A stretch of DNA of 32,000 nucleotides from Acaryochloris marina MBIC11017 (lineage in GTDB: Bacteria > Cyanobacteriota > Cyanobacteriia > Thermosynechococcales > Thermosynechococcaceae). Of this stretch, positions 4,035 through 28,917 are shown one piece after another. The notes below the pieces were generated by a model, which worked only from the letters and a program-made list of their open reading frames with translations, had not been told where the DNA came from and made no database searches. How positions within the stretch are numbered: position 1 is the first letter of the stretch; each line of letters starts with the position of its first letter. The position numbers were made by a program, and so were the translations under genes. The stretch covers positions 2,760,001-2,792,000 of the forward strand of contig NC_009925.1 in the NCBI RefSeq assembly GCF_000018105.1. Reading direction: 5' to 3'.

Positions 4035-5885
4035 ATGACAGAGCAGGCAGCAGCACAGACACAACCCCTTCAGTTCATGTTAGCGGATACCGATCCGATC
4101 TTTCGGGTCGGGTTAAAAGCTTGCCTAGACGCCGTAGCCGATATTCAGGTTGTCGCTGAAGCCGACGATCCAGCTCAAGTTTTACAGCTGTTCTCAACGC
4201 CATTGGCAGAAGAGGCCAGCCCAGAGGTCGATCCACAATCTCTGGATTTGCTGATTCTCGATATCAGTCGGGTCGGGGATACCGAAGCGAATGGCCTCCT
4301 CTGTCAACAGCTAAAGGGGCGCTATCCCAATCTGGCCCTGTTTGTTTTATCGGCAACCATCGACCCCAATCAGCTCACCAAACTGTGGCAAGTCGGCGTT
4401 GAAGGCTTTTGTCGGAAAGGCAGTGTCGATACCCCCACCTTAATCCAGCAATTTCGGCGAACCAGTCAAGGCCAGCGGGTTTGGGACGCCGCTCAGAAGG
4501 CCCAGGCTCAGATCGTGCCGCAGCCTGATGCCCCGCCGCCGATGGTCACTCAAAATGTGACCGCCTTTACCCTGTTGCGGCAGGTGTTTATGCAAACGGG
4601 GTTAAAGCAAATTGAGCAAACCCTAGAGCAGCTGCAAGCTCGCCGCCAAGGGGAAGCCTTAACCCAATGGCAACGCGCTGTAAATGAAGGGCGAGAGCGA
4701 GAATTACAATCCGTGCGCTGGCTGGTGCGCCAGTATATGGAGCGCCAGAGTGGTGCCGCTGAGGAAGACGCCCCCGCAGAACCAGAAGAACCTGCTTTTT
4801 CTTGGGCCAATGTCGATCCCTGGGAAACCGATGAGTTAGCGGTCCCCTCGCGGGTTACGGAAGTGAGTGACGGGGGGGACCTCGCTGCTCAGCCAGACAT
4901 CACCACCGTACTGATGGATGGGTTGCTGGCTAAGCTCCCCACTAGCCTCTCCAATCGCACCCAAGATCCGTTAGAAATTGATATTCTCAAGGCCCAAAAG
5001 CGCCAGGATTTATTTCTGATTGTGTTGAAGCAATTTGAAACCGTGGTGGAAGAGTTGCGCTATGCCCAGGTGACGCGATCTCAACTGGTAACCAAACGCT
5101 CCAAACTCCTGCAAGACCTATGGATGGGGGCCACCGCCGATTTTTTTGGTAAGTATTTGACCATCCCGTTATCTCCAGCAGTCAACACCCAGGGCTTAGA
5201 AGATATCGAAATTGTCAGTGTGCTCCAGCAAGACCAAACCATTGTCGAAGCAGAGATCCTCAATAAAATTCCCCTGGTAACGGAACTGCTGGATCATCTC
5301 CTGTTTAAAGCGCCTTTACTGGTTGACAATACCTTGTCCGCCGTGGGTTCTCCTGAAGCCATGCTCCAGGCAGAAGCTCTGCTGAGTAACCTCGTGGTCA
5401 GTGTGGCCAATGGTGTGCTGCAGCCATTGCTGAATCGCTTTGCCACCAATGAAGCGATTAAACAAAGCTTCTACGACCGTTCTTTAATTTCTACCCGTGA
5501 TATTGAGCGGTTTCGCAATGCCCTCTCTAATCACTACCGGTCTCGACGCCTGTTCAAAGAGCCTACTGATATTTTCGAAAGTCAGTATAGGTTAATCGTG
5601 TTTAGTGAGGCGGGGATGCAGAAAATTTCCGTTTATGCTTCCCGCGATCAGGAACTCAAGCAGCTCCAGGGCATCCGGTTTTTTGTGACCTTGGCTTTAG
5701 AGGGGAGAGATGCGATCGCACCGCCACTACAGGCCACCTTCACCTTCCTCGGTCGAGGAGTGGTTTATATCCTCACTCAAGTGATTGGCCGAGGCTTAGG
5801 TTTAATTGGTCGCGGCATCTTACAAGGGGTCGGCGGCACCTGGCAAGACATTTTCGTCAGCCGCAAAAGCCATCAAGAAAAATAA
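4035..5885 (+). CDS. Response-regulator receiver-like domain protein with a long C-terminal region (DUF3685/Ycf55-like)
   Basis: 616 aa. The N-terminus has a CheY-like pattern: FMLADTDPIF, LLILDIS (candidate phospho-Asp), FVLSAT and GFCRKG. An acidic, proline-rich linker is followed by a conserved-looking C-terminal half. The DUF3685/Ycf55 assignment is from memory of this architecture and was not searched. Confidence 0.55.
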   Translation: MTEQAAAQTQPLQFMLADTDPIFRVGLKACLDAVADIQVVAEADDPAQVLQLFSTPLAEEASPEVDPQSLDLLILDISRVGDTEANGLLCQQLKGRYPNLALFVLSATIDPNQLTKLWQVGVEGFCRKGSVDTPTLIQQFRRTSQGQRVWDAAQKAQAQIVPQPDAPPPMVTQNVTAFTLLRQVFMQTGLKQIEQTLEQLQARRQGEALTQWQRAVNEGRERELQSVRWLVRQYMERQSGAAEEDAPAEPEEPAFSWANVDPWETDELAVPSRVTEVSDGGDLAAQPDITTVLMDGLLAKLPTSLSNRTQDPLEIDILKAQKRQDLFLIVLKQFETVVEELRYAQVTRSQLVTKRSKLLQDLWMGATADFFGKYLTIPLSPAVNTQGLEDIEIVSVLQQDQTIVEAEILNKIPLVTELLDHLLFKAPLLVDNTLSAVGSPEAMLQAEALLSNLVVSVANGVLQPLLNRFATNEAIKQSFYDRSLISTRDIERFRNALSNHYRSRRLFKEPTDIFESQYRLIVFSEAGMQKISVYASRDQELKQLQGIRFFVTLALEGRDAIAPPLQATFTFLGRGVVYILTQVIGRGLGLIGRGILQGVGGTWQDIFVSRKSHQEK

Positions 5886-5968: not shown

Positions 5969-6784
5969 GTGACTAAGATCGAAGCTCAGGATTTGAATAG
6001 GTTAAGCCCCATGATGCAAGTAGCCGAGTTGCTGGAGCGCTACGCTGCCGGAGAAAGAGATTTTTGCGAAATAGAGTTAAAAAATGCGGACTTAAGCCAG
6101 CAGAATTTATCTGGCGCCACATTTATTAAGTCCAAATTAAGCCATATGAATTTGGAGAATGCCTACTTATATGGGGTGAACTTCAAACACAGTTATATCG
6201 AAGATACAAACCTGGCGGGTGCCCAGCTTTGTGGCGCCAACCTATGGGGCGTTAATTTTCAGGGTAGTGTGCTGGCAGAGGCAAACCTCAGTGATGCCTA
6301 TATCCGAGGCACCTATCTCCTCAAAGCAGATTTGAGTAAGGTGAATCTTCAGCGAGCCAATTTGCAGCGGTCTTACCTATGGGGGGCAACCCTGAATCAT
6401 GCCGATATGCGGGACGCCAATTTAACCGGCGCAAACTTAGATTCGGCAACCTTAATGTTTGCCGATCTGAGCGAAGCCAACTGCCAAGATAGCTCTATGA
6501 AAGGGGCGAATTTAAGTGGGGCTTGCCTGATTGGAGCTTGCCTGGATCGCGTTAACCTGAGCCACGCCAACCTAAGCATGGCCGAACTCAGCGAAGCGCG
6601 AATGAAGTTTGCCCAACTGACGGACACCATTTTCCAGCAGGCAAACTTAAGCAGCACCAATCTGGCCTACGCCCAAGTGCAGCTACAGAGACTGCAAGAC
6701 GCCATTTTATCTCGCACCATTTTGCCGGATCAGCGGGTGGTCAACAATCTGGCCCCAGCAATGGTCGCTAGCGTCACACACTAA
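5969..6784 (+). CDS. Pentapeptide-repeat protein (cytoplasmic type)
   Basis: 271 aa, with a GTG start at 5969 and an alternative ATG at 6011. A(D/N)LxX repeats run throughout (ADLSQQNLSGATFIKSKLSHMNLENAYL...). The repeats are degenerate at the DNA level. Confidence 0.85.
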   Translation: MTKIEAQDLNRLSPMMQVAELLERYAAGERDFCEIELKNADLSQQNLSGATFIKSKLSHMNLENAYLYGVNFKHSYIEDTNLAGAQLCGANLWGVNFQGSVLAEANLSDAYIRGTYLLKADLSKVNLQRANLQRSYLWGATLNHADMRDANLTGANLDSATLMFADLSEANCQDSSMKGANLSGACLIGACLDRVNLSHANLSMAELSEARMKFAQLTDTIFQQANLSSTNLAYAQVQLQRLQDAILSRTILPDQRVVNNLAPAMVASVTH

Positions 6785-8208: not shown

Positions 8209-8312
8209 GCTCTCTTTCTTGTTCTACTATTTTCAGTTTATTGCTCTACTATTTTCAGTAGCTCTGGGCTATCCAGGGATAAAATTATCCTTCACACACC
8301 ACACCTAAACCT

Positions 8313-8729: not shown

Positions 8730-9242
8730 ATGAGATTTGGTGTTTTTGCGATTGCACTCACCCTCGGGGTGACTTTAGGTAGCTCGGCTTTCGCTGCCGA
8801 TCCTAAACATGTTGCTCAGCTCAAACAGGTCAACTCCTGTGAAGGTTGCGATCTCAGTGGCGCTGATTTAAGTGGACTCATTCTAATCCGTGCTAATCTC
8901 CGCAATGCCAACTTGCAAGGGGCGAACCTGCGCAATACCTCGTTACTCCTGAGTAATTTAGAGAACGCTAACTTAGAAAATGCGAATTTCACCGCCGCCT
9001 ATCTATACGGCAGCAACTTAGAAAACACTCAGCTCACCAGCACTGACTTTACCCAAGCCGTTTTACGGAGTGCTAAATTGCAAGGCGCTGATGTGTGTAC
9101 GGCCACCCTTGCCGGAGCAGACTTGACAGATGCTGACGTCGATTTAGACGACTGTCCCCTTGCCCCACCCCCCGGCGCTACAAAGCCAGAGACTCCAGAA
9201 GAAGAATCCTTGATCAAAGATACGCTACCAGAGACTCCTTAA
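8730..9242 (+). CDS. Secreted pentapeptide-repeat protein
   Basis: 170 aa. A signal peptide (MRFGVFAIALTLGVTLGSSAFA) is followed by ADLSGLILIRANLRNANLQGANLRNTSL... and a Pro/Glu-rich tail. Confidence 0.8.
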   Translation: MRFGVFAIALTLGVTLGSSAFAADPKHVAQLKQVNSCEGCDLSGADLSGLILIRANLRNANLQGANLRNTSLLLSNLENANLENANFTAAYLYGSNLENTQLTSTDFTQAVLRSAKLQGADVCTATLAGADLTDADVDLDDCPLAPPPGATKPETPEEESLIKDTLPETP

Positions 9243-10533: not shown

Positions 10534-13500
10534 ATGAAAACATCGGTAGAACTCTCCCAGTCTGTCTCAGATCGTCTATCTGCCTTAATGGACCAAGGGT
10601 TCTATCTCCAGGCCTATGACTTATGCCAGTCCGTTGATCTGCGGTCGACGGGGCCAGACACTACCACCCAACTTTTGGTAGGTCGCCTCACAGGGGCTCT
10701 AGGCGCGCCCCGACAACGAGCAGCGATATTACTTCGAGCTTGGCGGCGGAATCCAGCGGATCCAGATGCGCTGTATTACTACATCAGTACGATGCTTTGG
10801 CGGCAGGGTCCCTTAGCGGCCTATCGTCTGATTCAAAAGCATCAATCGCAATTTGATCACTTCACTCCATATCAACAAGCCCAGTGGCTGGGGTTACAAG
10901 CCCAGGTGGTTTTAGAATTCCGAGACTTTGATCGAACGGACGCCTACCTCCAAGAAGCAAAGATTTTAGCCCCAGAGGATCCCTGGATCACCCTGTTACA
11001 GTCCCGTTTATGGGAGCAAGAAGATCGATATCCAGACGCTTTAGCCATGGCCCAAAAAGCCTTAGCACAGCATCTATGGTATCGCCCTGCCGTATTGGCA
11101 ACAGCCCATTTATATACCCTCTTAAACCAAGATGACCAAGCGCTGGAACTCCTCCAGCAGGCCACCACTCAGCTAGAGAGTGGAGATATTTGGGCCCAAC
11201 TCGCTGCGCTCCAACTGGAGCTGGGGCAGTATACACAAGCTCAGCACAGTTATCAGCAATACGAACAAGCCTGTCCTCTCCTGGACAAGGCCGGGCAATC
11301 TCGACTATGGTCTGCCCAAGCTGACATTGCCTACCAGAGGGGAGATTTTAATCAAGCCCATCACTTGGCTCAGAAATTAACGGAGTACCCCTACTATCAG
11401 TCCTTAGCCCAACGCCTGCTGGAGCTACCCGAGGGAGAACGGGTGATTTTACCCGTCGGTTTTGTCCGTCAGCACCACATGACGTGTGCCCCCGCCACTT
11501 TGACCACCCTTTGTGCCTATTGGGGCACCACGGTGGATCACCAGCAACTTGCGGACAGCATCTGCTACAACGGCACATCTAGCTACAGTGAGCGGGATTG
11601 GGCCAGTCAGCAAGGATGGGCGGTTTGCGAATTTACGGTGACCTGGGACAGCATTATCCAGCTGATTGATGCTGGCATCCCGTTTACCCTCAGTACCGTT
11701 GAAGCCACGTCAGCCCACTTACAAGCCGTGATTGGCTATGACAGTCGCTTGCAGACCCTGATTATTCGTGACCCTTACCATCGGGGTATCGTTGAACCCT
11801 GGGCCAAGGAATTTCTGGAACGATATCAGGCGTCTGGTCCCCGAGGTATGGTGCTCTTGCCACCAGAGAAAGCGGGCTTGTTAGAAACCCTAGACCTTCC
11901 CGATAGCCGCCTTTACGATCAGCTCCATGCACTACAAGCAGCCCTAACCCACCATGATCGCGCCACCGCCGGTGACTGGAGCCAACGGCTGAATGGAGCC
12001 GCCCCTCACCATCGCCTTGCCCTCCAGGCTCAGTTCGAGCTGGCTTATTATGATGCTGACCACACCAGTGCCTTGGCCGTGATCGAACAAATGCTGGAGC
12101 AGTTTCCCGCTGCACCGCATCTGATGTTGCAGAAACTCCAATACTTACAGGAATTGGCCAGCCGCCAAGATTGTGTTGATTGGCTCACGTATGTGATTGA
12201 GCAAGAACAGTTCCATCCCATTTTTTGGACTCGACTCGCCAAGCTCTTAAGTGACGATGCCAGGGCTGATGAATCCGCCATTCGCTTACTGCGACGATCT
12301 ATCCGGGCAATGCCGACGGAAGCCTATAACTACTTTTTACTGGCGAATCTGTATTGGTCACAACGCCAGTTTGACGTCGCACTGGACTTATATCGATTTG
12401 CAGCCTGTCTCGAAGATAAGGAGCAAACCTATGCTCACAACTATTTCCTGGCGGCTCGGGGATGCCGACAAACATCTGTTGCCCTACAGCTATTGAAACA
12501 ACGGTGGAGCCGGGACCAAAAGCGATCGGCCCGTCCTGTTTATGCTTTGGCGACTGCTTATGACCATTTAGACCGCCCTTCCGAGGCCATTGAGGTATTG
12601 GCGCAAACCCAGTCCTGGCATCCGGGCGATGGAGAGTTGCTGTTATATCGGGCCAAGTACTTGGGCGAGCATGGCCAGTTTGATCAAGCCCATGCCCTAT
12701 TGAAGGAGGCCAAAGCTAAGACGGCCCATAGTCGTTGGTTAAGTACGGCGGCCACCCTGGCACAGTATGAATACAAACCTGACCAAGCCCTCGACTTATG
12801 GCAACAGCTCATCAACGCTGATCCCTTAGATATCGAGGCGAATCGCGCCGTTAGTCAACTGTTAGCGGAACAGGAAGGCGTCACTGCCGCCCGTGAGTTT
12901 ATAGCAGCTACCTGCAGCACCTTCCCGGACCATGCAGGGTTACATCACCTCTGGTATCAACAGGTGCAGGAGGGGGATGCGGTCGTTGCAGAACAGGTAC
13001 TACGGCGACTGGTAGACATTAACCCTAAAGACGCTTGGTCTTGGCGACAAATCGCCTGGCAACTCGGTCGACAACAGCAGCTAGAGGCAGGGTTTGACGC
13101 CTGCGAAACAGCTCAGCACTTAGATCCGCACAACCCAGCCTATTTCACCATCTATGGGTATCTCTGGGTTTTAAACAAAGACATTCCCATGGCTAAGACC
13201 GCGTTCAAATCGGCCCTTCAGCGGTCTGTCGATTCTAGCCGAGCCATTTCCGAACTGATCGATATTTGCCAGTCCACAGAAGAGCAAAAAGACGTTATCG
13301 ACTTTATCTTTCACGAGTTTCAGAAACAGGTGATTACGGGGGATGGACTGTTCACCTTTTACCAATACGCGCGCACTGTCTTGACGCCTGAAGACTTTGA
13401 TCAACGCATCCAGGAAGTGCATGCCGCTCGACCCGATTTATGGCAGGTCTGGACCGTTAGAAGTCGGCAACTCCTCAGTAGCGATAGAACAACGGAAGCC

Positions 13501-15591
13501 TTGGCGATTGCAGTGGAAGCATCGGAGCGCTTTCCCCTCTTGCCCCGGGTGTGGGTAGATTTAGCAATCGTGCATCGCACCCGTAAGGATGATGAAGCCG
13601 AAGAACAAGCCCTGCAAACCGCTTTACGAATTAATCCAGGGTGGGATAGTGCCATTCAACAGTTGGCAGATCTCTATGACCGCACGAATGCGCTAGACAA
13701 ATGCAAAGCTCTGTTAGAAACGGCTCTGATGCATTCACCCCTGGAGGCCTATCTTCACGGCTATCTTGCAGATGTGCGGTGGAAACTGGATGACTGTGAG
13801 GCCGCTCTACAACAGTTGCAGAAAGCCCTTCGTCTTGATCCTAGCTATGACTGGGGATGGAACCGGCTCCAAGAATGGGCTCAGACCTTGGAACGTCCCC
13901 ACCTCACCGCAGACATCGCTCGGGAGCTAACGGTCACTCGATCAGGAGAGGCCCAGTCCTGGTTACGGTTGGCTGAATATCTGACTGGAGACGACACGCT
14001 AGATGAACGGATTGCTGCTGTAGACCAGGCCATTGCGCTCAATCCTCGCTGTTGGGATGCCTATGATTTAAAGGCTAAGGTATTGGCGGCAGCGGAGCGA
14101 TACGAAGATGCGATCGCAACCTGCTCTCCCCCTGAAGTCGACGATGACGTCCCCTCATTTTTGGGCGCTCGGGCCGCTTGGATTCAATACCAGCAAGGCC
14201 AATTTGACGAGGCCATCCAAGCCATGAAGACGATTCTGGCCAAAGATCCTGACTATTTCGCAGGATGGCGTATTCTGGCGGATTGGTATCGACAACTCGA
14301 CCACCTAGACGCGTATCTACCGACCGCGCAACAGCTGGTGCGACTGGCTCCACAAGAGTGTATTGCTTGGGGCTATCAGGGAGAAGCCAAACAAAAAACA
14401 GGAGACCGATTAGGCGCAAAAGCAGATTTTCGCAAGGCTTTTGAGCTAGATCCTGAATACAGTTTTGCCGGGTTGAGTCTCTTTGATCTCGAATTAGAGG
14501 GGCTTGAGACTGAGGCAGCCGCCAACACCTTAGCTCGATTAAAAGAGCATTGTAATGATGAATTTGTTTTGGCTCGTGCCGTTCAGCTTGCAGTCAGACA
14601 GAATGACCTGAATACGGCGACTCAAACCTTAGCACAACTCTGTATCTATCCCAGTGACCAGGAATGGCCCTTGGAGGCTGCGGTGGAGTCCATGATTGCT
14701 GCCAATTGGACCACTGAAGCTCAAACTATTCTCTTTGACGCTTTTCCCCAACCCGATGCCCATCCGAAGGTGGGATATCACTGGGTCTACTGTTGTGAGA
14801 AGCTGAAACAACGGAAATTTTGTCAGAAACAATTACAGAAGTTTCATCCTGACCATCCAGTCCAAAGACAGGCCCTGATCACTTATATCCGTCTTTTGGC
14901 CTATCGCAATTCTTCCGGTCCCTTGCTGAAGTTTCTCCGGGAAAACCGAGACCTTTTGCGATCGCACACTGAAACCTGGGGCATTGTGGGTTATGCCTTA
15001 TCAGAACGGCGAGAGCACAAAATCAATCTCAAATGGTTATCCGATTGGAAAGCACGCAGTGAGGTGAAGCCATGGATGCTGCTCAATCTCGTGCAATCAC
15101 TCCAAGCAACCCAGCATCCTGCTGATGCTATCTCAGTTAGTCAATATTCCCTTACCCTTCCAGAAGATGATGGGACCCTAGTCCATCGGCTCTGGCTAGC
15201 TTATGCCGCCAGCCATGAAGGGCAGACTATCAAAGCCAACCATTACTTGCAGGATATTGATCCAAAATATTTAGAGAAGGAGTATCTGTTTCTCCAATAT
15301 CTCGTAAAGGCCAATCTAGCGATTGACTGTACAGAACTGCCTCGTCGTCAGCGTTTGGAGCAAGCCAAGTTACATGTACAGCAAGCGATGGCTGTTCATT
15401 CCGAGTTTCGAACTCGCTTTTATTGGCAGCATGTCTTCTCCAGTAGTGTATGGAGAATTGCGAAACAGAGTCGGAATATCAGCGGTTATATCTGGGCTCT
15501 CTCCCAAAGCATCCCACCTGATATCTTTTGGGCCATCATCTATCTACTGGGAACCCTCTTTTTTCTGATCCTCAAAATTATGAATCCGTAA
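10534..15591 (+). CDS. Giant TPR-repeat protein with embedded C39-like (papain-fold) cysteine peptidase domain and C-terminal transmembrane anchor
   Basis: 1685-aa uninterrupted ORF. The peptidase core is at about 11431-11823: VRQHHMTCAPATLTTLCAYWG (Gln312/Cys318, TGT at 11485-11487), SAHLQAVIGYD (His395) and LIIRDPY (Asp413). TPR-like A/L/Y/W-rich 34-residue periodicity lies on both sides. The last ~30 aa (IFWAIIYLLGTLFFLILKIM) are hydrophobic. Confidence 0.75.
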   Translation: MKTSVELSQSVSDRLSALMDQGFYLQAYDLCQSVDLRSTGPDTTTQLLVGRLTGALGAPRQRAAILLRAWRRNPADPDALYYYISTMLWRQGPLAAYRLIQKHQSQFDHFTPYQQAQWLGLQAQVVLEFRDFDRTDAYLQEAKILAPEDPWITLLQSRLWEQEDRYPDALAMAQKALAQHLWYRPAVLATAHLYTLLNQDDQALELLQQATTQLESGDIWAQLAALQLELGQYTQAQHSYQQYEQACPLLDKAGQSRLWSAQADIAYQRGDFNQAHHLAQKLTEYPYYQSLAQRLLELPEGERVILPVGFVRQHHMTCAPATLTTLCAYWGTTVDHQQLADSICYNGTSSYSERDWASQQGWAVCEFTVTWDSIIQLIDAGIPFTLSTVEATSAHLQAVIGYDSRLQTLIIRDPYHRGIVEPWAKEFLERYQASGPRGMVLLPPEKAGLLETLDLPDSRLYDQLHALQAALTHHDRATAGDWSQRLNGAAPHHRLALQAQFELAYYDADHTSALAVIEQMLEQFPAAPHLMLQKLQYLQELASRQDCVDWLTYVIEQEQFHPIFWTRLAKLLSDDARADESAIRLLRRSIRAMPTEAYNYFLLANLYWSQRQFDVALDLYRFAACLEDKEQTYAHNYFLAARGCRQTSVALQLLKQRWSRDQKRSARPVYALATAYDHLDRPSEAIEVLAQTQSWHPGDGELLLYRAKYLGEHGQFDQAHALLKEAKAKTAHSRWLSTAATLAQYEYKPDQALDLWQQLINADPLDIEANRAVSQLLAEQEGVTAAREFIAATCSTFPDHAGLHHLWYQQVQEGDAVVAEQVLRRLVDINPKDAWSWRQIAWQLGRQQQLEAGFDACETAQHLDPHNPAYFTIYGYLWVLNKDIPMAKTAFKSALQRSVDSSRAISELIDICQSTEEQKDVIDFIFHEFQKQVITGDGLFTFYQYARTVLTPEDFDQRIQEVHAARPDLWQVWTVRSRQLLSSDRTTEALAIAVEASERFPLLPRVWVDLAIVHRTRKDDEAEEQALQTALRINPGWDSAIQQLADLYDRTNALDKCKALLETALMHSPLEAYLHGYLADVRWKLDDCEAALQQLQKALRLDPSYDWGWNRLQEWAQTLERPHLTADIARELTVTRSGEAQSWLRLAEYLTGDDTLDERIAAVDQAIALNPRCWDAYDLKAKVLAAAERYEDAIATCSPPEVDDDVPSFLGARAAWIQYQQGQFDEAIQAMKTILAKDPDYFAGWRILADWYRQLDHLDAYLPTAQQLVRLAPQECIAWGYQGEAKQKTGDRLGAKADFRKAFELDPEYSFAGLSLFDLELEGLETEAAANTLARLKEHCNDEFVLARAVQLAVRQNDLNTATQTLAQLCIYPSDQEWPLEAAVESMIAANWTTEAQTILFDAFPQPDAHPKVGYHWVYCCEKLKQRKFCQKQLQKFHPDHPVQRQALITYIRLLAYRNSSGPLLKFLRENRDLLRSHTETWGIVGYALSERREHKINLKWLSDWKARSEVKPWMLLNLVQSLQATQHPADAISVSQYSLTLPEDDGTLVHRLWLAYAASHEGQTIKANHYLQDIDPKYLEKEYLFLQYLVKANLAIDCTELPRRQRLEQAKLHVQQAMAVHSEFRTRFYWQHVFSSSVWRIAKQSRNISGYIWALSQSIPPDIFWAIIYLLGTLFFLILKIMNP

Positions 15592-24756: not shown

Positions 24757-27700
24757 TCAACGATACCGTTCCTTCTCCACCCACTGTTCAGCTTTTTCCA
24801 AGGTCGCAAAACGAGTAGGAAAGCGATCATGGAGAGCCGTTGCAAGTCCATCCCAATCTCTGTTGGAATCAATATCGATATTTGAGGGTAGAAATGCACT
24901 GCATATAAGGGGTGGATCAACACCTTCCAGTTGATCACTCGTTAAGTTTTGAGCATCACTCAAAACCGTTCGTATTAAGAAAGTGTTGCTGAGGTTGGCG
25001 CGGATGAGGTTGGCGCTGCTGAGGTCGGCGCTGCTGAGGTTGGCGCGGATGAGGTTGGCGCGGATGAGGTTGGCGCTGCTGAGGTTGGCGCTGCTGAGGT
25101 TGGCGCTGCGGAGGTCGGCGCTGCGGAGGTTGGCGCGGATGAGGTTGGCGCTGCTGAGGTCGGCGCTGCTGAGGTTGGCGCGGATGAGGTTGGCGCGGAT
25201 GAGGTTGGCGCTGCTGAGGTTGGCGCTGCTGAGGTCGGCGCTGCTGAGGTTGGCGCGGATGAGGTTGGCGCTGCTGAGGTTGGCGCTGCTGAGGTTGGCG
25301 CTGCTGAGGTTGGCGCTGCTGAGGTTGGCGCTGCTGAGGTCGGCGCTGCTGAGGTCGGCGCGGATGAGGTCGGCGCTGCTGAGGTCGGCGCTGCGGAGGT
25401 CGGCGCTTCTGAGGTCGGCGCGGATGAGATAAGGCCCAACCGTTTTAGCAAACATCCCTGTTCCAAGAGCATCTGCATAATGAATAATTTTGAGGAGACG
25501 ATCGGCTTGAAAGCTCTCTGTATCAGCTTGACCACAGGGATAAAAATAGATCTCAGGTTGAGGTGTATCGTCTCCAAGATAGGGATAGCCCCCTGGTTGC
25601 GCAGATGCATGTAGCCTAAATAGAAAAATCATCACGTTTAGCCCCGTAAATACATCTACTTGCTTTAATCCGGTAGGGATCTCGTGGCCTAACAGTTGGA
25701 TCAGTTTCTTCTGGGGAAGATTCTCATTGGGGGGAGCATCCAAAAATTCGTTTTGGCACCAGCGATCATAGAAATTATTGAGGCGATTAAACAGCCGTAC
25801 ACGGTCAATATCGCTCTCATCCAGTAGCTCCCACAAATAGGCGACAATTTCTTGACTCAGGCCGCCATAACCCAATACGTCGTAAATTTGTTCATTCAGT
25901 GCTCGTTCATCTAGCCGAAACCGTTGTCGTTTATCTAACTCCGTCCAGGCTTCAAAGGCGTTCAGTAATCGCTCTGCAAACAAATACTCGCCAAAGCTCT
26001 TGTGGGCAAATTCCACTGAACCCCGTTGATCTCTTTCTCCTGGTTTGAGATAAAAGGTGGTCAGTAAATTATTCAGCGCCTTGTCCTCAGATTGCCCAGT
26101 GGTTGCCTGGGCTTGCTTCAGCAATTCAGCGATGGGATTGCTACTGTCTTGAAACCGCTGCTTCACCATTTCCAGTCGGGCCGTTTCATTGCCCGACTGA
26201 ACCACACACAATGCTGCTTCTTGCAGTATCTCCCGTAAATCTTCCAGGGAATCTAGCCCTGATAGCCGCAAATTCTCATCCTGCCGCTGTTTTTTCAACA
26301 CCCAATTCACCGCTGCTCGATAAATCCGCAGCTTGGCCTGAGTGTCTTGATTAAGACCTGCTTGAGTATCTGCAAACATTCCTTGAGTCAGATGCCCCTC
26401 TCGATTAAGCCGCGCCAGCAAGTACAGCAGAAGCGGCTCACGGGCTAGAGTATCTGTGATGTCTTTGGGGCAGGCTGTCAAAAATTCCCGGAACTGATTG
26501 ACCTTCTCTTCTCCAAATAGGGCTTGCCATTTGTTCAGCCAGCCTTCCCTCAACTGATCTCCCATGGGTTCCAGCCGCACCCGCTCCAGATCTTTATTTT
26601 GGGTGATCAGTCGATCGATTCCTTGCAGCGCTAACGGTCGTCCAGTGACCAATAGCTGATGATGGCTACGCCGCTGAAAATCCGTTACTTGCTGCAAAAA
26701 CTCCTTTAAACCACCCGTAGCCCGCCCTTCTAACAAGAGTTCATCAAAGCCATCCAAAATAATAAAAAATCGAGTGTTTTTATCCGCTAGCCAGCTCGAT
26801 TCCCCGCGCACGAAATTTTCCTGCTCTAAATCGGGGCAGTCTTCTAGTGTTTCCGTTAGATTATTTGCCAGTTTCCGTAGGTCTCGTAACCGAATCCGCA
26901 AGGGAATAAAAGCATCTCCAAATTCCGAGCACACCCAATTGGCAATCATGCGACAAAATACAGATTTCCCTCGGCCTGCCTCGCCTTCCATAAACATCAC
27001 TTTGCGGGGCTGGTTGGCTGGCTGGTCTAAAGTTTTCTTCGTCCATTCATGGCTACAGATGGGACTAACATCACGTTTTACCTCTCCTTCCTGAGTTAAG
27101 GGCTGCACCTCTAGCCGTACATAGATGTCTTGAAAGCTTACTCTGGGGCTACTTTCATCAAAGACCTGCTCCTGTGGAGTAGGTCTTATCCGCGTTTTTA
27201 AATACTCGTCAATAGCCGTATAGCGTTCTAGCTCTTGCTGACCACCCGTGCGGTAAAACTCCGCCAAGGGTTCCACACTTTCCCCAGCTTCTGCAATGAC
27301 CTCATGGAAATACCGATGACTTCCCCACAAGACTTGATCTGCCAATCGTTGGGCTTGGCTGTTGTCCAGTCCAAACTGTTGCAACTGCTCTATCAAATCT
27401 GTTCCAAACTTCTCGGCGAATACAGACTCTCGAAATTGGGTAGTGGCTGTCTTTGCCTCCGTGAGGGTCAGCTCTGTTTTATAAAATTTGGAAAGCTGTT
27501 GCTCGACAACATCCTTAAGCAATAGCTGCGCTAGTTTCGCTTTAATCGTCTCATCTTGTTTCTCCAACACTATTTCTAAACTTCGGAGATAGGCGAGTTG
27601 GGCGACAATTGTGACTGAACTCTCGAAAGTTGGCTCCACTTTTGCCAGTTCAATCCCAATTTTCAGCACGTTAATGCCAGCAGATACAAATGGCAACCCA

Positions 27701-27924
27701 GAAATAGCCAACTTTGTCACTGGCGTATCCAGGGCTTTGATCAGTGGTTCTGCTTTTTGCAAATAAGGGGCAAGCTGTTGAATCTGATCGGCATTGTCCT
27801 GCCAAGCTTTTGCAGCATCCGGCAACGCCTTCATGGCTTCAATGCCTTGTTGGGCCACATCTCCCCAAGGAATATCTCGTACATCCGTATTGAGAAAATC
27901 CCAAAATCCTCTGAGAGCTTTCAT
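24757..27924 (-). CDS. NLR-like STAND NTPase: helical N-terminal region + NACHT P-loop module + C-terminal pentapeptide-repeat array
   Basis: 1055-aa ORF. Walker A is VMFMEGEAGRGKSVFCRMI (about 26962-26988) and Walker B is FFIILDGFDELL. A helical/winged-helix-like middle region follows. The C-terminus has 29 consecutive A(D/N)L(S/R/I)(S/R) pentapeptides plus 2-3 degenerate ones. Confidence 0.9.
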   Translation of the reverse strand: MKALRGFWDFLNTDVRDIPWGDVAQQGIEAMKALPDAAKAWQDNADQIQQLAPYLQKAEPLIKALDTPVTKLAISGLPFVSAGINVLKIGIELAKVEPTFESSVTIVAQLAYLRSLEIVLEKQDETIKAKLAQLLLKDVVEQQLSKFYKTELTLTEAKTATTQFRESVFAEKFGTDLIEQLQQFGLDNSQAQRLADQVLWGSHRYFHEVIAEAGESVEPLAEFYRTGGQQELERYTAIDEYLKTRIRPTPQEQVFDESSPRVSFQDIYVRLEVQPLTQEGEVKRDVSPICSHEWTKKTLDQPANQPRKVMFMEGEAGRGKSVFCRMIANWVCSEFGDAFIPLRIRLRDLRKLANNLTETLEDCPDLEQENFVRGESSWLADKNTRFFIILDGFDELLLEGRATGGLKEFLQQVTDFQRRSHHQLLVTGRPLALQGIDRLITQNKDLERVRLEPMGDQLREGWLNKWQALFGEEKVNQFREFLTACPKDITDTLAREPLLLYLLARLNREGHLTQGMFADTQAGLNQDTQAKLRIYRAAVNWVLKKQRQDENLRLSGLDSLEDLREILQEAALCVVQSGNETARLEMVKQRFQDSSNPIAELLKQAQATTGQSEDKALNNLLTTFYLKPGERDQRGSVEFAHKSFGEYLFAERLLNAFEAWTELDKRQRFRLDERALNEQIYDVLGYGGLSQEIVAYLWELLDESDIDRVRLFNRLNNFYDRWCQNEFLDAPPNENLPQKKLIQLLGHEIPTGLKQVDVFTGLNVMIFLFRLHASAQPGGYPYLGDDTPQPEIYFYPCGQADTESFQADRLLKIIHYADALGTGMFAKTVGPYLIRADLRSADLRSADLSSADLIRADLSSADLSSANLSSANLSSANLSSANLSSANLIRANLSSADLSSANLSSANLIRANLIRANLSSADLSSANLIRANLRSADLRSANLSSANLSSANLIRANLIRANLSSADLSSANLIRANLSNTFLIRTVLSDAQNLTSDQLEGVDPPLICSAFLPSNIDIDSNRDWDGLATALHDRFPTRFATLEKAEQWVEKERYR
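24991..25425 (-). repeat. Tandem array of 29 x 15-bp units inside the NACHT gene, encoding the pentapeptide repeats
   Basis: Plus-strand unit consensus is gaggtYggcgcNNNN. Ten of the 15 positions are invariant in all 29 units. Seven unit variants occur. Segments 24991-25095 and 25126-25230 are identical (105 bp). Confidence 0.95.
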
Positions 27925-28322: not shown

Positions 28323-28625
28323 ATGCTGAATAAATCTCATTCGGCCTCTCATGTGCGCCAAAACTTCTTCAAAGTTCTGGATGAGGTCACCCAAGATCGC
28401 AACGTCGTCCTAATTGAAAGACGAGATGCCCCAGACGTCGCCATCATCTCCGCCGATGAGCTAACCAGCATGATGGAAAGCCTCTACCTGCTGAGATCCC
28501 CCCATAATGCCCAAAGACTGTTTGACGGACTGGCCTGGTCAAAAACCCAAGATCAGAATCCACCTGGCGCAGAAGCTGCCGAACAAGCCATCGCCCAGTT
28601 GAGAGAAGAGATTGAGCAAGCGTAA
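28323..28625 (+). CDS. yefM: Type II antitoxin YefM
   Basis: 100 aa. SASHVRQNFFKVLDEV...VLIERRDAPDVAIISADELTSMMESLYLLRSPHNAQRL closely parallels E. coli YefM (..ETAYLLRSPANARRL..). Confidence 0.9.
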   Translation: MLNKSHSASHVRQNFFKVLDEVTQDRNVVLIERRDAPDVAIISADELTSMMESLYLLRSPHNAQRLFDGLAWSKTQDQNPPGAEAAEQAIAQLREEIEQA

Positions 28626-28917
28626 ATCCAACATATCGGATCAGCCCCTCACCGTCTTTCGACGATACGCCAATCTATCGCCTCAATTTCGAGAAGATCT
28701 CAAAGCTCTCGCTCAAACCGAACCTAAACTCTACGATCGCACCTGGGTGATCATTGATAATACCCTCGAAGATCCGTTTAAGGGCATTGGCAAGCCTGAA
28801 CCCTTGAAGCATATCGGGAGTGATATTTGGTCTCGCCGCTTATCCCATGAGCATCGCATCGTCTATGTGGTCAGGGATGAGCGTATTGACTTTATCCAAG
28901 CCAAATATCATTACTGA
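28612..28917 (+). CDS. yoeB: Type II toxin YoeB/Txe family
   Basis: PFKGIGKPEPLKHIGSDIWSRRLSHEHRIVYVVRDERIDFIQAKYHY matches YoeB (GKGKPEPLKH..WSRRI..EHRLVY....HY). The only in-frame start upstream of the conserved core is TTG at 28612, which overlaps the yefM stop and gives an N-terminal extension of about 17 aa. Confidence 0.85.
   Translation: MSKRKSNISDQPLTVFRRYANLSPQFREDLKALAQTEPKLYDRTWVIIDNTLEDPFKGIGKPEPLKHIGSDIWSRRLSHEHRIVYVVRDERIDFIQAKYHY

What the first reader, a model, noticed from the sequence alone, without database searches (positions are those of the whole stretch)
24991..25425. 29 nearly identical 15-bp DNA units with an exact 105-bp higher-order duplication: a candidate hypervariable, concertedly evolving sensor array
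Reading the plus strand in 15-nt steps from 24991 gives 29 units of gaggtYggcgc + (tgct | ggat | tgcg | ttct). Positions 1-5 and 7-11 never change. Only seven unit variants exist: 11x SSANL, 7x IRANL, 5x SSADL, 2x IRADL, 3x RSADL in two codon versions, and 1x RSANL. Units 1-7 (24991-25095) are repeated base-for-base as units 10-16 (25126-25230). By contrast, the two other pentapeptide genes in this window (5969-6784 and 8730-9242) encode the same protein motif with fully degenerate DNA. Protein-level selection alone therefore does not explain this homogeneity. The pattern points to recent expansion or contraction by slippage or unequal recombination. This parallels the highly internally conserved WD/ANK/TPR repeats of fungal NLRs, which diversify by repeat shuffling. 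The variable codons fall at pentapeptide positions that are partly surface-exposed (D/N, S/R/I). Because of the periodicity, all six frames are open across the array.
Basis: seen in the sequence. Interest (0 to 1): 0.72.

Follow-up and report, generated by a model that had tools for sequence, protein, structure and literature searches.

The report
Fast-changing pentapeptide array in bacterial NLR
The 29 near-identical 15-base units are real and encode the β-solenoid "sensor" end of an NLR-like immune-type ATPase of the cyanobacterium Acaryochloris marina; this stretch differs in unit number and order between two otherwise almost identical strains, much as fungal immune receptors vary their repeats.

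Summary
One detail is wrong: five of six frames are open, not six.

The array lies on the minus strand inside a 1055-aa gene (24757-27924). This gene is A. marina MBIC11017 WP_012163196. Its architecture is NNH3 helical domain, NACHT NTPase, pentapeptide β-helix, then a conserved C-terminal cap.

Codon bias does not explain the uniformity. The array uses CTC for 29 of 29 leucines, against 18% in neighbouring genes.

The syntenic gene of strain MBIC10699 has 31 units in a different order. The other 14.8 kb compared shows only 2 SNPs and one 3-bp indel (p about 1e-6).

Across 130 related cyanobacterial arrays, 29 are equally homogenised. Variation in those arrays sits at the three outward-facing residues. 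Homogenised arrays change length between close relatives; degenerate ones do not.

This is a bacterial pentapeptide version of the "highly internally conserved" NLR repeats known from fungi. The sensor and immune role is inferred, not shown.

The parts
24757..27924 (-). Complete gene of 1055 aa (WP_012163196 / ABW27749, Acaryochloris marina MBIC11017 chromosome). It encodes an NNH3-NACHT-pentapeptide-repeat STAND NTPase, that is, a bacterial NLR-like protein.
   Evidence: ORF list and translation. 100% match to P0001. Pfam NNH3 170.9 bits, NACHT 35.2 bits (cut-off 26.7), Pentapeptide 135.4 bits. More than 780 homologues, almost all named ones cyanobacterial.
27151..27783 (-). NNH3 (NACHT N-terminal helical domain 3), aa 48-258. 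It sits in the position where NLRs carry the effector or adaptor. Its function is unknown.
   Evidence: Pfam PF22735, E 5e-50. The AF2 model is all-helical, with pLDDT about 85 over aa 100-300 and below 50 over aa 1-84. No PDB fold match at E<0.001.
26527..27000 (-). NACHT NTPase core, aa 309-466. Walker A is GEAGRGKS (26962-26985) and Walker B is IILDGFDE (26740-26763); both are intact.
   Evidence: Pfam PF05729. Motif coordinates. Both motifs fall in near-invariant columns of the 50-sequence alignment.
24994..25428 (-). The array in coding register: 29 units L-x-x-A-(D/N), aa 833-977. This is about 7.25 turns of a right-handed quadrilateral β-helix.
   Evidence: AF2 pLDDT is 98-99 across it, with a strand every 5 residues. 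Foldseek matches Np275/276 (2j8k) at rmsd 0.6 Å over 154 columns and the synthetic solenoid beta1 at E 6e-14.
24991..25095 (.). Copy 1 of the exact 105-bp (7-unit) higher-order duplication.
   Evidence: Base-for-base identity with 25126-25230. In strain MBIC10699 the internal copy is not identical.
25126..25230 (.). Copy 2 of the exact 105-bp duplication. It lies within the stretch (about 25131-25311) that holds all differences between the two strains.
24949..24993 (-). Three degenerate terminal pentapeptide units (LSNTF LIRTV LSDAQ), aa 978-992. They close the solenoid and are conserved among orthologues.
24760..24948 (-). Conserved C-terminal cap of about 63 aa (NLTSDQLEG..PPLIC..RDWD..WVEKERYR). 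It has no Pfam family. It is also found after pentapeptide arrays in a caspase-nSTAND1 protein.
   Evidence: Conserved in homologues. AF2 predicts helix/strand/helix/helix with pLDDT 83-96. The same tail occurs in L166.

Best explanation
The array is the ligand-facing β-solenoid of a bacterial NLR-like STAND NTPase. It evolves by turnover of whole 15-bp cassettes rather than by point mutation.

Each cassette encodes one pentapeptide, L-x-x-A-(D/N). Ala (i-2) and Leu (i) fill the core of a four-sided β-helix and never change. D/N (i-1), S/I/R (i+1) and S/R (i+2) lie on the surface.

Because the cassettes are nearly identical at the DNA level, replication slippage, unequal recombination or intragenic conversion can add, delete and swap units in frame. 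This creates alleles that differ in solenoid length and in the pattern of side chains on the four faces. An indel of n units also rotates everything downstream by n x 90 degrees.

By analogy with other NLR/STAND proteins, ligand binding to this C-terminal domain would release the NACHT module to oligomerise and activate the N-terminal NNH3 domain.

Shown here:
- the domain architecture and the fold;
- DNA homogeneity beyond codon bias;
- differences concentrated in the array between two strains;
- recurrence across the family;
- an excess of non-synonymous variant types at exposed positions.

Inferred:
- the sensor role, the ligand and an immune or cell-death output;
- that the variation is adaptive;
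- which DNA mechanism operates.
For: - Architecture: NNH3, NACHT and pentapeptide repeats. Walker A and B are intact.
- Fold: AF2 model of aa 639-1055 has pLDDT 95.8 and pTM 0.91 and matches Rfr-fold structures.
- DNA identity from common descent, not codon bias: CTC 29/29 against 18% background. The same-residue/same-codon index is 0.94 against a null of 0.29 taken from the rest of the same gene.
- Between-strain hotspot: MBIC11017 has 29 units and MBIC10699 has 31. There are at least 5 events in 435 bp against 3 in about 14,800 bp, binomial p about 1e-6. MBIC10699 is an independent isolate from the same sea area, assembled with Nanopore plus short reads (PMC9324425).
- Unit swapping: most differences recreate unit types that already exist, including a two-nucleotide S-S to I-R change. 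Only one is a new type (LIRAY).
- Lineage-specific amplified unit types on a shared founder unit in four Acaryochloris copies. A 95%-identical orthologue has a degenerate array.
- Family-wide: 29 of 130 arrays have an index above 0.9, and the median is 0.74 against a null of 0.33.
- In 28 homogenised arrays, possible single-nucleotide non-synonymous variants at i-1, i+1 and i+2 are observed 4-6 times as often as synonymous ones (p 7e-9 to 6e-14). At the core Leu the ratio is 0.9.
- Among close relatives (flank at least 95% identical), homogenised arrays differ in unit number (31/33, 58/47, 20/26). Degenerate arrays do not (11/11, 30/30, 38/38/38).
- The same pentapeptide-plus-cap module is attached to another STAND class with a caspase effector. 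That fits a portable sensor module.
- Pentapeptide repeats are listed among the C-terminal sensor repeats of bacterial NACHT proteins (preprint 10.1101/2022.07.19.500537).
Against: - No experiment links this protein, or any NNH3-NACHT-pentapeptide protein, to phage defence or any ligand. PADLOC models give no hit.
- The strain comparison rests on two assemblies. MBIC10699 was polished three times with 150-bp reads, which can miscall bases inside such an array. The single-base differences are therefore less secure than the two in-frame 15-bp indels.
- Several family members come from short-read MAGs, where arrays can collapse. The 58 versus 47 pair may be such a case.
- The non-synonymous excess test is crude. 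It counts distinct variant types, includes related arrays, and has no transition/transversion or recombination model. Within this single array, 6 of 6 non-synonymous types is not significant on its own (my estimate from the unit codons, roughly p 0.15).
- Mean within-array unit identity (0.874) is only slightly above the identity to the S15 copy (0.859). The classical concerted-evolution signal is therefore modest.
- The N-terminal domain has no recognisable effector fold.
Confidence: 0.7

Rival explanations
1. Neutral minisatellite instability. The array is an unstable in-frame tandem repeat that the solenoid fold tolerates. Length and unit order drift through slippage, with no role in recognition specificity and no selection for diversity.
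For: The unit is a multiple of three, and any unit count is structurally allowed: n mod 4 is uniform at 27/29/33/27 in 116 arrays. Homogeneity and length instability go together, as expected from mechanics alone. No significant selection signal exists within this single array. No functional data exist.
Against: Pooled over 28 homogenised arrays, non-synonymous variant types at the three exposed positions are 4-6 times more frequent than synonymous types. At the buried Leu they are not. Neutral drift should give a ratio near 1. About a fifth of a large family keeps such arrays in independent lineages. Each lineage has amplified different exposed-residue variants.
Confidence: 0.2
2. The pentapeptide domain is not the sensor. 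It would be an output or scaffold element, for example a DNA-mimicking inhibitor of DNA-binding enzymes like MfpA/Qnr, or an oligomerisation scaffold. Sensing would be done elsewhere.
For: Pentapeptide proteins such as MfpA, Qnr and AlbG are DNA mimics, and they appear among the fold matches. Kaur et al. 2020 (PMC7159879) place pentapeptide repeats in effector or scaffold positions of other conflict systems and mention this possibility.
Against: The array surface is not acidic: 13 Arg against 10 Asp, with no Glu. DNA mimics are strongly anionic (established knowledge). The domain is C-terminal to the NACHT, which is the sensor position in NLRs. It is the fast-changing part, while NNH3 and NACHT are 100% identical between the two strains. 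The same module is combined with a different, recognisable effector, a caspase, in L166.
Confidence: 0.08
3. Assembly or polishing artefact. The array, or the differences between the two strains, would be produced by mis-assembly of a low-complexity repeat.
For: Short-read assemblies do break in such arrays: several contigs end inside them. MBIC10699 was polished with 150-bp reads. An older CCMEE 5410 record runs out of frame inside its array.
Against: The array is 435 bp, and Sanger reads from the finished MBIC11017 genome should span that length (my inference; I saw no reads). The 465-bp MBIC10699 version comes from a Nanopore-based assembly. Both versions are in frame, with identical flanks and identical first 7 and last 9 units. 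Similar homogenised arrays occur in two further complete Acaryochloris plasmid records.
Confidence: 0.04

Closest known systems
Highly internally conserved (HIC) WD40, ANK and TPR repeats of fungal NLRs: HET-E/D/R and the nwd family of Podospora (Paoletti 2007 PMC1805685; Chevanne 2010 PMC2873952; Dyrka 2014 PMC4986451)
   Same: Both are repeat domains C-terminal to a NACHT/STAND NTPase. Units are near-identical at the DNA level. Repeat number differs between strains. Unit shuffling recreates existing unit types. Variation is confined to a few surface positions. Only a fraction of the family shows it: 16% of fungal NLR repeats against 29 of 130 arrays here.
   Different: The repeat type here is a 5-residue β-solenoid unit of 15 bp, not a 33-42-residue WD, ANK or TPR unit. 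Amino-acid identity between units is only about 0.65, below the 85% fungal criterion, because 3 of 5 residues vary. The organism is a bacterium. No incompatibility or immune phenotype is known. Exchange between paralogues was not shown.
Bacterial NACHT (bNACHT) NLR-related anti-phage proteins (Kibby et al., preprint 10.1101/2022.07.19.500537)
   Same: Both have a NACHT module with an N-terminal NNH-type helical domain and a C-terminal repeat 'sensor'. That survey explicitly lists pentapeptide repeats (Pp) and NNH domains. It also notes a rapidly diversifying C-terminus for bNACHT01.
   Different: In the passages I read of that paper I found no tested NNH3-NACHT-pentapeptide protein. The diversification described there is amino-acid substitution in a short SNaCT domain, not cassette turnover in a repeat array. 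No PADLOC model matches this protein.
Highly repetitive WD40 and TPR repeats in prokaryotic NLR-like proteins (noted in Dyrka et al. 2020 preprint 10.1101/2020.01.06.895854, citing Hu 2017 and Marold 2015)
   Same: These are bacterial, often cyanobacterial, STAND proteins whose repeats show 80-90% internal identity. They were proposed to diversify rapidly.
   Different: That work covers WD and TPR repeats only; the word 'pentapeptide' does not occur in that text. The passage I read proposes rapid diversification by analogy and offers no between-strain comparison.
Pentapeptide repeat proteins of the Rfr fold (Np275/276, HetL, Rfr23/32, MfpA, Qnr) and the designed consensus solenoid 'beta1' (4yfo, 4yc5)
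   Same: The repeat motif and the fold are the same. The best PDB sequence match is the synthetic consensus protein (E 2.9e-36). The best structural superposition is Np275/276 at 0.6 Å. The natural array looks like a consensus-designed protein.
   Different: The two free-standing pentapeptide proteins in this window have degenerate DNA and no NTPase. The array here has no acidic DNA-mimic surface.
Simple-sequence contingency loci and VNTRs in bacterial coding regions
   Same: Both show repeat-mediated, recA-independent or recA-dependent gain and loss of units. This gives high local mutability relative to the flanks.
   Different: The unit is 15 bp, a multiple of three. Changes therefore alter length and composition rather than switching the gene on and off. 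The product is a cytoplasmic NLR-like protein rather than a surface antigen.

Membership tests
Pentapeptide repeat family (Pfam PF00805, Rfr fold) | Tandem A(D/N)LXX units recognised by the family model | tested here: met
   PF00805 at 135.4 bits against a cut-off of 20.2, in 6 stretches.
Pentapeptide repeat family (Pfam PF00805, Rfr fold) | Right-handed quadrilateral β-helix with four units per turn | tested here: met
   AF2 pLDDT 95.8, with a strand every 5 residues. Foldseek matches 2j8k at rmsd 0.6 Å and 4yei at E 6e-14. This is a prediction, not a solved structure.
NACHT-clade STAND NTPase / bacterial NLR-related protein | NACHT NTPase module with Walker A and Walker B | tested here: met
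   PF05729 at 35.2 bits against a cut-off of 26.7. GEAGRGKS and IILDGFDE are present and near-invariant in 50 homologues.
NACHT-clade STAND NTPase / bacterial NLR-related protein | Tripartite layout: N-terminal effector or adaptor, central NTPase, C-terminal repeat sensor | tested here: met
   NNH3 at aa 48-258, NACHT at aa 309-466, pentapeptide array at aa 833-992. This layout is listed for bacterial NACHT proteins.
NACHT-clade STAND NTPase / bacterial NLR-related protein | Protection against phage, or ligand-triggered oligomerisation | not testable with these tools
   No experimental data were found. PADLOC gives no hit. NCBIfam gives only a weak sub-threshold hit to 'DS8_antiphage' over the NTPase region, 32 bits against a cut-off of 790.
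HIC (highly internally conserved) NLR repeats, as defined for fungi | Repeats sit in the C-terminal domain of an NLR/STAND protein | tested here: met
HIC (highly internally conserved) NLR repeats, as defined for fungi | At least 85% identity between units at the amino-acid level over at least 100 aa (Dyrka 2014) | tested here: not met
   Mean pairwise amino-acid identity of units is about 0.65, because 3 of 5 residues vary. DNA identity is 0.89, and the synonymous-codon identity index is 0.94. The array spans 145 aa.
HIC (highly internally conserved) NLR repeats, as defined for fungi | Repeat-number polymorphism between strains of one species | tested here: met
   29 against 31 units in MBIC11017 and MBIC10699, with identical gene flanks. 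Only two strains were compared, and there is an assembly caveat.
HIC (highly internally conserved) NLR repeats, as defined for fungi | Positive diversifying selection at a few positions on the interaction surface | tested here: inconclusive
   A pooled count over 28 arrays gives a 4-6-fold excess of non-synonymous variant types at i-1, i+1 and i+2, and 0.9-fold at the core Leu. No recombination-aware codon model was run. The single array alone is not significant.
HIC (highly internally conserved) NLR repeats, as defined for fungi | Exchange of repeats between paralogous genes | tested here: inconclusive
   The window array and the S15 plasmid copy share 4 unit DNA types. Common descent explains this equally well. 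The DNA of the paralogue in the same genome (P0003) was not obtained.
Diversity-generating retroelement (DGR) targets | Nearby reverse transcriptase and a template repeat | tested here: not met
   No reverse-transcriptase domain was found among the ten larger ORFs of the window that were scanned. No second copy of the unit lies outside the array.

The most novel reading that the evidence does not exclude
Cyanobacterial STAND/NLR proteins use pentapeptide solenoids as a cassette-encoded recognition surface. Each 15-bp unit would place three exposed residues on one of four faces. Slippage or recombination among near-identical units would continually produce new receptor alleles on the time-scale of strain divergence, including 90-degree register shifts of the whole downstream surface. 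This would be a bacterial, β-solenoid counterpart of fungal HIC repeats. It would be a repeat-shuffling route to receptor diversity distinct from DGRs and from gene-family expansion.
Probability: 0.35. Interest if true: 0.75.

Novelty: new variant of a known kind. Interest (0 to 1): 0.6.

Why it matters
NLR-like proteins are abundant in cyanobacteria: 58% of genomes carry them, with up to 23 copies per genome (preprint 10.1101/2022.07.19.500537). How their sensors keep pace with changing targets is largely unknown.

If the reading here is right, a fifth of one large family (more than 780 members) renews its sensor by shuffling 15-bp cassettes. That is the evolutionary regime known from fungal allorecognition and immune NLRs, but on a different fold and in bacteria. 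This would suggest the strategy is a general property of STAND receptors rather than a fungal peculiarity.

Practical consequences:
- These arrays break or collapse in short-read assemblies, so their diversity is under-reported.
- They offer a natural library of consensus-like β-solenoids with defined variable positions.
- The MBIC11017/MBIC10699 pair gives a directly testable case of a locus that changed while its surroundings stayed identical.

Tried and rejected
- PADLOC defence models gave no hit.
- An exact-protein look-up of the window protein in assemblies found nothing on record. No third allele of this exact gene was obtained.
- The metagenome scan found 80 relatives, but the closest was only 69% identical in the probe region. 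No population data for A. marina were obtained.
- N-terminal domain: the AF2 model is only moderate (pLDDT 68.8, aa 1-84 below 50). Foldseek against the PDB gave nothing below E 0.3. The effector mechanism stays unknown.
- 'All six frames open' is rejected: + frame 3 has 25 stops. The + strand ORF 24983-25432 and the second minus-strand ORF 24975-25610 are by-products of the periodicity. Only the 1055-aa frame has homologues.
- Codon bias as the cause of uniformity is rejected.
- The DNA-mimic idea is not supported by surface charge.
- A constraint to whole turns (multiples of 4 units) is rejected: unit counts are uniform modulo 4.
- DGR-type diversification is not supported: no reverse transcriptase was seen and no template copy exists.
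- A selection test on this array alone has too few variant types. I pooled across the family instead.
- Literature searches for pentapeptide repeats together with NLR internal conservation, repeat number or concerted evolution found no paper describing this. The library lacks most subscription journals, so absence is not proof.
Full report
**1. Observation**

Reading the + strand from 24991 in 15-nt steps gives 29 units. Columns 1-5 and 7-11 are invariant. Bases 24991-25095 are identical to 25126-25230.

Tandem Repeats Finder reports one array at 24987-25421, period 15, 29.0 copies, score 660. The unit, allowing up to two mismatches, occurs 27 times in the window, all inside the array, against 0.09 expected by chance.

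One ancillary statement is wrong. Five of the six frames are open across the array, and the third + frame has 25 TGA stops.

**2. What the DNA belongs to**

The array lies on the minus strand inside a 3168-nt ORF, 24757-27924, of 1055 aa. The protein is 100% identical to WP_012163196 / ABW27749 of Acaryochloris marina MBIC11017, on the 6.50-Mb chromosome.

Pfam finds three domains:
- NNH3, a NACHT N-terminal helical domain, at aa 48-258 (170.9 bits);
- NACHT at aa 309-466 (35.2 bits, cut-off 26.7);
- pentapeptide repeats (135.4 bits).

Walker A (GEAGRGKS) and Walker B (IILDGFDE) are intact. The array is aa 833-977 in the coding register L-x-x-A-(D/N). Three degenerate units follow it, then a conserved cap of about 63 aa with no Pfam family.

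An AlphaFold2 model of aa 639-1055, built on 48 sequences, has pLDDT 95.8 and pTM 0.91, with one short strand every five residues across the array. It superposes on the pentapeptide protein Np275/276 at 0.6 Å over 154 columns, and on a synthetic consensus solenoid at E 6e-14. That synthetic protein is also the best PDB match by sequence (E 2.9e-36).

The N-terminal 300 aa are predicted to be all-helical. Confidence is only moderate, and no PDB fold match was found. PADLOC defence models give no hit.

The architecture, a NACHT with an NNH-type N-terminus and pentapeptide repeats as a C-terminal 'sensor' repeat, is listed in the survey of bacterial NLR-related proteins (preprint 10.1101/2022.07.19.500537).

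**3. The uniformity is at the DNA level and is not codon bias**

All 29 Leu codons are CTC and all 29 Ala codons are GCC. Asn and Asp are only AAC and GAC. In eight neighbouring genes CTC makes up 18% of Leu codons, AAC 35% of Asn, GAC 38% of Asp and AGC 16% of Ser.

The two free-standing pentapeptide genes of the window use four or five Leu codons each. Their mean pairwise unit DNA identity is 0.39, against 0.89 for the array. They encode ordinary degenerate repeats, not the same units. They are therefore a control for codon choice only.

I used an index: the fraction of same-residue positions between units that use the same codon. It is 0.94 for this array, against a null of 0.29 computed from the rest of the same gene.

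**4. Direct test of hypervariability**

A second isolate, A. marina MBIC10699 (AP026075), carries the gene in the same synteny. Acetyl-CoA synthetase lies on one side and a YefM/YoeB pair on the other. This strain is an independent isolate from the same sea area. Its genome was assembled from Nanopore plus short reads, and its genome-wide ANI to MBIC11017 is 98.0% (PMC9324425).

Over the 15.3 kb shared with the window, the only differences outside the array are two SNPs and one 3-bp indel. Inside the array there are two 15-bp indels and four substitutions in the BLAST alignment. The 2496 nt of the gene before the array and the 222 nt after it are 100% identical. Finding at least 5 of 8 events in 435 of about 15,250 bases has a binomial probability of about 1e-6.

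The first 7 and last 9 units are the same in both strains, and the middle is rearranged (29 against 31 units). Most changes recreate unit types that already exist, including a two-nucleotide change from S-S to I-R. One unit type, LIRAY, is new. This pattern is what unit gain, loss and conversion would give.

Caveat: three rounds of short-read polishing could have miscalled single bases in such a repeat. The in-frame 15-bp indels are more secure than the substitutions.

**5. History within Acaryochloris**

A syntenic orthologue assembled from public reads (L002/L003, CCMEE 5410-like) is about 95% identical in the first 900 nt of the gene. It has 38 units of 32 DNA types, with ordinary synonymous scatter.

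More distant copies on plasmids of A. marina S15 (L164) and of Acaryochloris sp. 'Moss Beach' (L165) are again homogenised, with indices of 0.96 and 0.92. The Moss Beach copy is interrupted by an IS4 element.

All copies share the founder unit CTCAGCAGCGCC(A/G)AC, but each has amplified private variants:
- I-R in the MBIC strains;
- F-S, S-R and Tyr in S15;
- H-L, S-G and Thr in Moss Beach.

The arrays have therefore been rebuilt independently while the rest of the gene diverged by 5-12%. The classical concerted-evolution measure is only modest: mean unit identity is 0.874 within the array against 0.859 to S15. The reason is that all arrays descend from the same founder unit.

**6. The family**

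More than 780 homologues were found. Nearly all named ones are cyanobacterial, and lengths range from about 870 to 1185 aa.

From 160 loci fetched from genomes and metagenomes I extracted 130 distinct arrays of at least 10 units. The codon index has a median of 0.74 against a null of 0.33, and 29 arrays exceed 0.9. Contigs that end inside arrays have a higher index on average. Short-read assemblies therefore probably under-represent homogenised arrays.

In 28 homogenised arrays, I compared the proportion of possible single-nucleotide non-synonymous variants that is actually observed with the pooled proportion for synonymous variants:
- at i-1 it is 4.2 times the synonymous proportion (Fisher p 7e-9);
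- at i+1 it is 4.0 times;
- at i+2 it is 5.8 times (Fisher p 6e-14);
- at the core Leu it is 0.9 times.

This points to diversifying selection on the exposed residues. It is a crude count, made without a recombination-aware model.

Among pairs whose 900-nt upstream flank is at least 95% identical, the outcome depends on homogeneity:
- homogenised arrays differ in unit number (31/33, 58/47, 20/26);
- degenerate arrays do not (11/11, 30/30, 38/38/38).

Some of these loci are short-read MAGs, so this is supportive evidence only. Unit counts are uniform modulo 4, so whole turns are not required.

**7. Mechanism proposed**

By established knowledge of the Rfr fold, the i-2 (Ala) and i (Leu) residues point into the core. 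The i-1, i+1 and i+2 residues point out, and four units make one turn.

The invariant and variable codons of the array match this exactly. Laying the units on four faces shows that 8 of the 9 I-R units of MBIC11017 sit on faces 1 and 4. The 11 I-R-type units of MBIC10699 (the LIRAY unit included) are spread over all four faces, because the two extra units rotate everything downstream by 180 degrees.

Cassette turnover thus changes both the length and the face pattern of the surface. The array is not acidic (13 Arg, 10 Asp), which argues against a DNA-mimic role like that of MfpA or Qnr.

A different STAND protein on plasmid pREC2 of MBIC10699 has the layout caspase, nSTAND1, pentapeptide repeats, and it ends in the same conserved cap. 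This fits a portable sensor module.

The sensing role, the ligand and the downstream action of NNH3 are inferred from the NLR paradigm. They are not shown.

**8. Comparison with what is known**

The closest analogue is the highly internally conserved WD, ANK and TPR repeats of fungal NLRs. These show repeat-number polymorphism, unit shuffling and positive selection at surface positions, and they make up 16% of fungal NLR repeats (PMC4986451; PMC1805685). [quoted passage not shown]

I found no description of the same regime for pentapeptide arrays, within the limits of the held library. The formal fungal criterion of at least 85% amino-acid identity between units is not met. Identity here is about 0.65, because three of five residues vary. 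The array therefore works like a HIC repeat but is not a member by that definition.

**9. Verdict**

- The feature is a new variant of a known kind.
- The immune or sensor function and the adaptive value are unproven.
- The decisive check is read-level validation of the two alleles, followed by a population survey.

Noticed in passing
window 28323-28625 (+) and 28612-28917 (+): A YefM (Phd/YefM antitoxin) and YoeB toxin pair lies about 400 bp upstream of the NLR-like gene, on the opposite strand. The same arrangement is kept in MBIC10699 and in the CCMEE 5410-like contigs.
   Followed up: partly
L166:1017-4196 (A. marina MBIC10699 plasmid pREC2, NZ_AP026077): A 1059-aa protein with a caspase (Peptidase_C14) domain, an nSTAND1 NTPase and a degenerate 39-unit pentapeptide array. 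It ends in the same conserved C-terminal cap (..LTQSQLEG..PLICN..RD..) as the NACHT protein. The pentapeptide-plus-cap module is therefore shared between two STAND classes with different effectors.
   Followed up: partly
P0002 versus P0123 (CCMEE 5410-like orthologues; no window coordinates): The older CCMEE 5410 record (1063 aa) has two extra blocks of four units, one full solenoid turn each, relative to the 1095-aa version. It then runs out of frame through the rest of the array as ..ISAAPTSSTPTS... This shows that an alternative open frame can be read through. In the newer assembly only a 68-aa C-terminal fragment is annotated. Whether this is a real frameshift or a sequencing error is unknown.
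   Followed up: partly
L165:2001-7562 (Acaryochloris sp. 'Moss Beach' plasmid pMB02): The plasmid copy of the gene is split by an IS4-family transposase insertion. Only the C-terminal 703 aa are annotated as a pentapeptide protein. Its neighbours, like those of the S15 plasmid copy, include a Ser/Thr kinase and CHAT-domain proteins; an NB-ARC protein is annotated next to the S15 copy only.
   Followed up: no
P0003 (WP_012168491, on a 120,693-bp contig, probably a MBIC11017 plasmid): A paralogue in the same genome, 84% identical over NNH3-NACHT. After a shorter, more degenerate array it carries a different C-terminal region of about 300 aa with no Pfam hit, instead of the conserved cap.
   Followed up: no
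window 10534-15591 (+): A 1685-aa ORF with many TPR repeats and a Peptidase_C39-like domain at aa 308-415. It is unrelated to the finding.
   Followed up: no
L001:1-2239 (MBIC10699 chromosome, beyond the window end): A 1457-aa TIR-CHAT-TPR protein gene lies about 6 kb from the NLR-like gene. This suggests a neighbourhood of conflict-system genes just outside the window.
   Followed up: no
loci L006, L012, L026, L053, L083 and others: Several short-read contigs end inside highly homogenised pentapeptide arrays. Such arrays break assemblies and are probably under-counted or collapsed in MAGs.
   Followed up: partly
window 5808-5847 and 8215-8259: Two small two-copy tandem repeats, with periods of 21 and 22. 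The first lies within the last 80 bases of the ORF 4035-5885 and the second in the spacer between ORFs.
   Followed up: no
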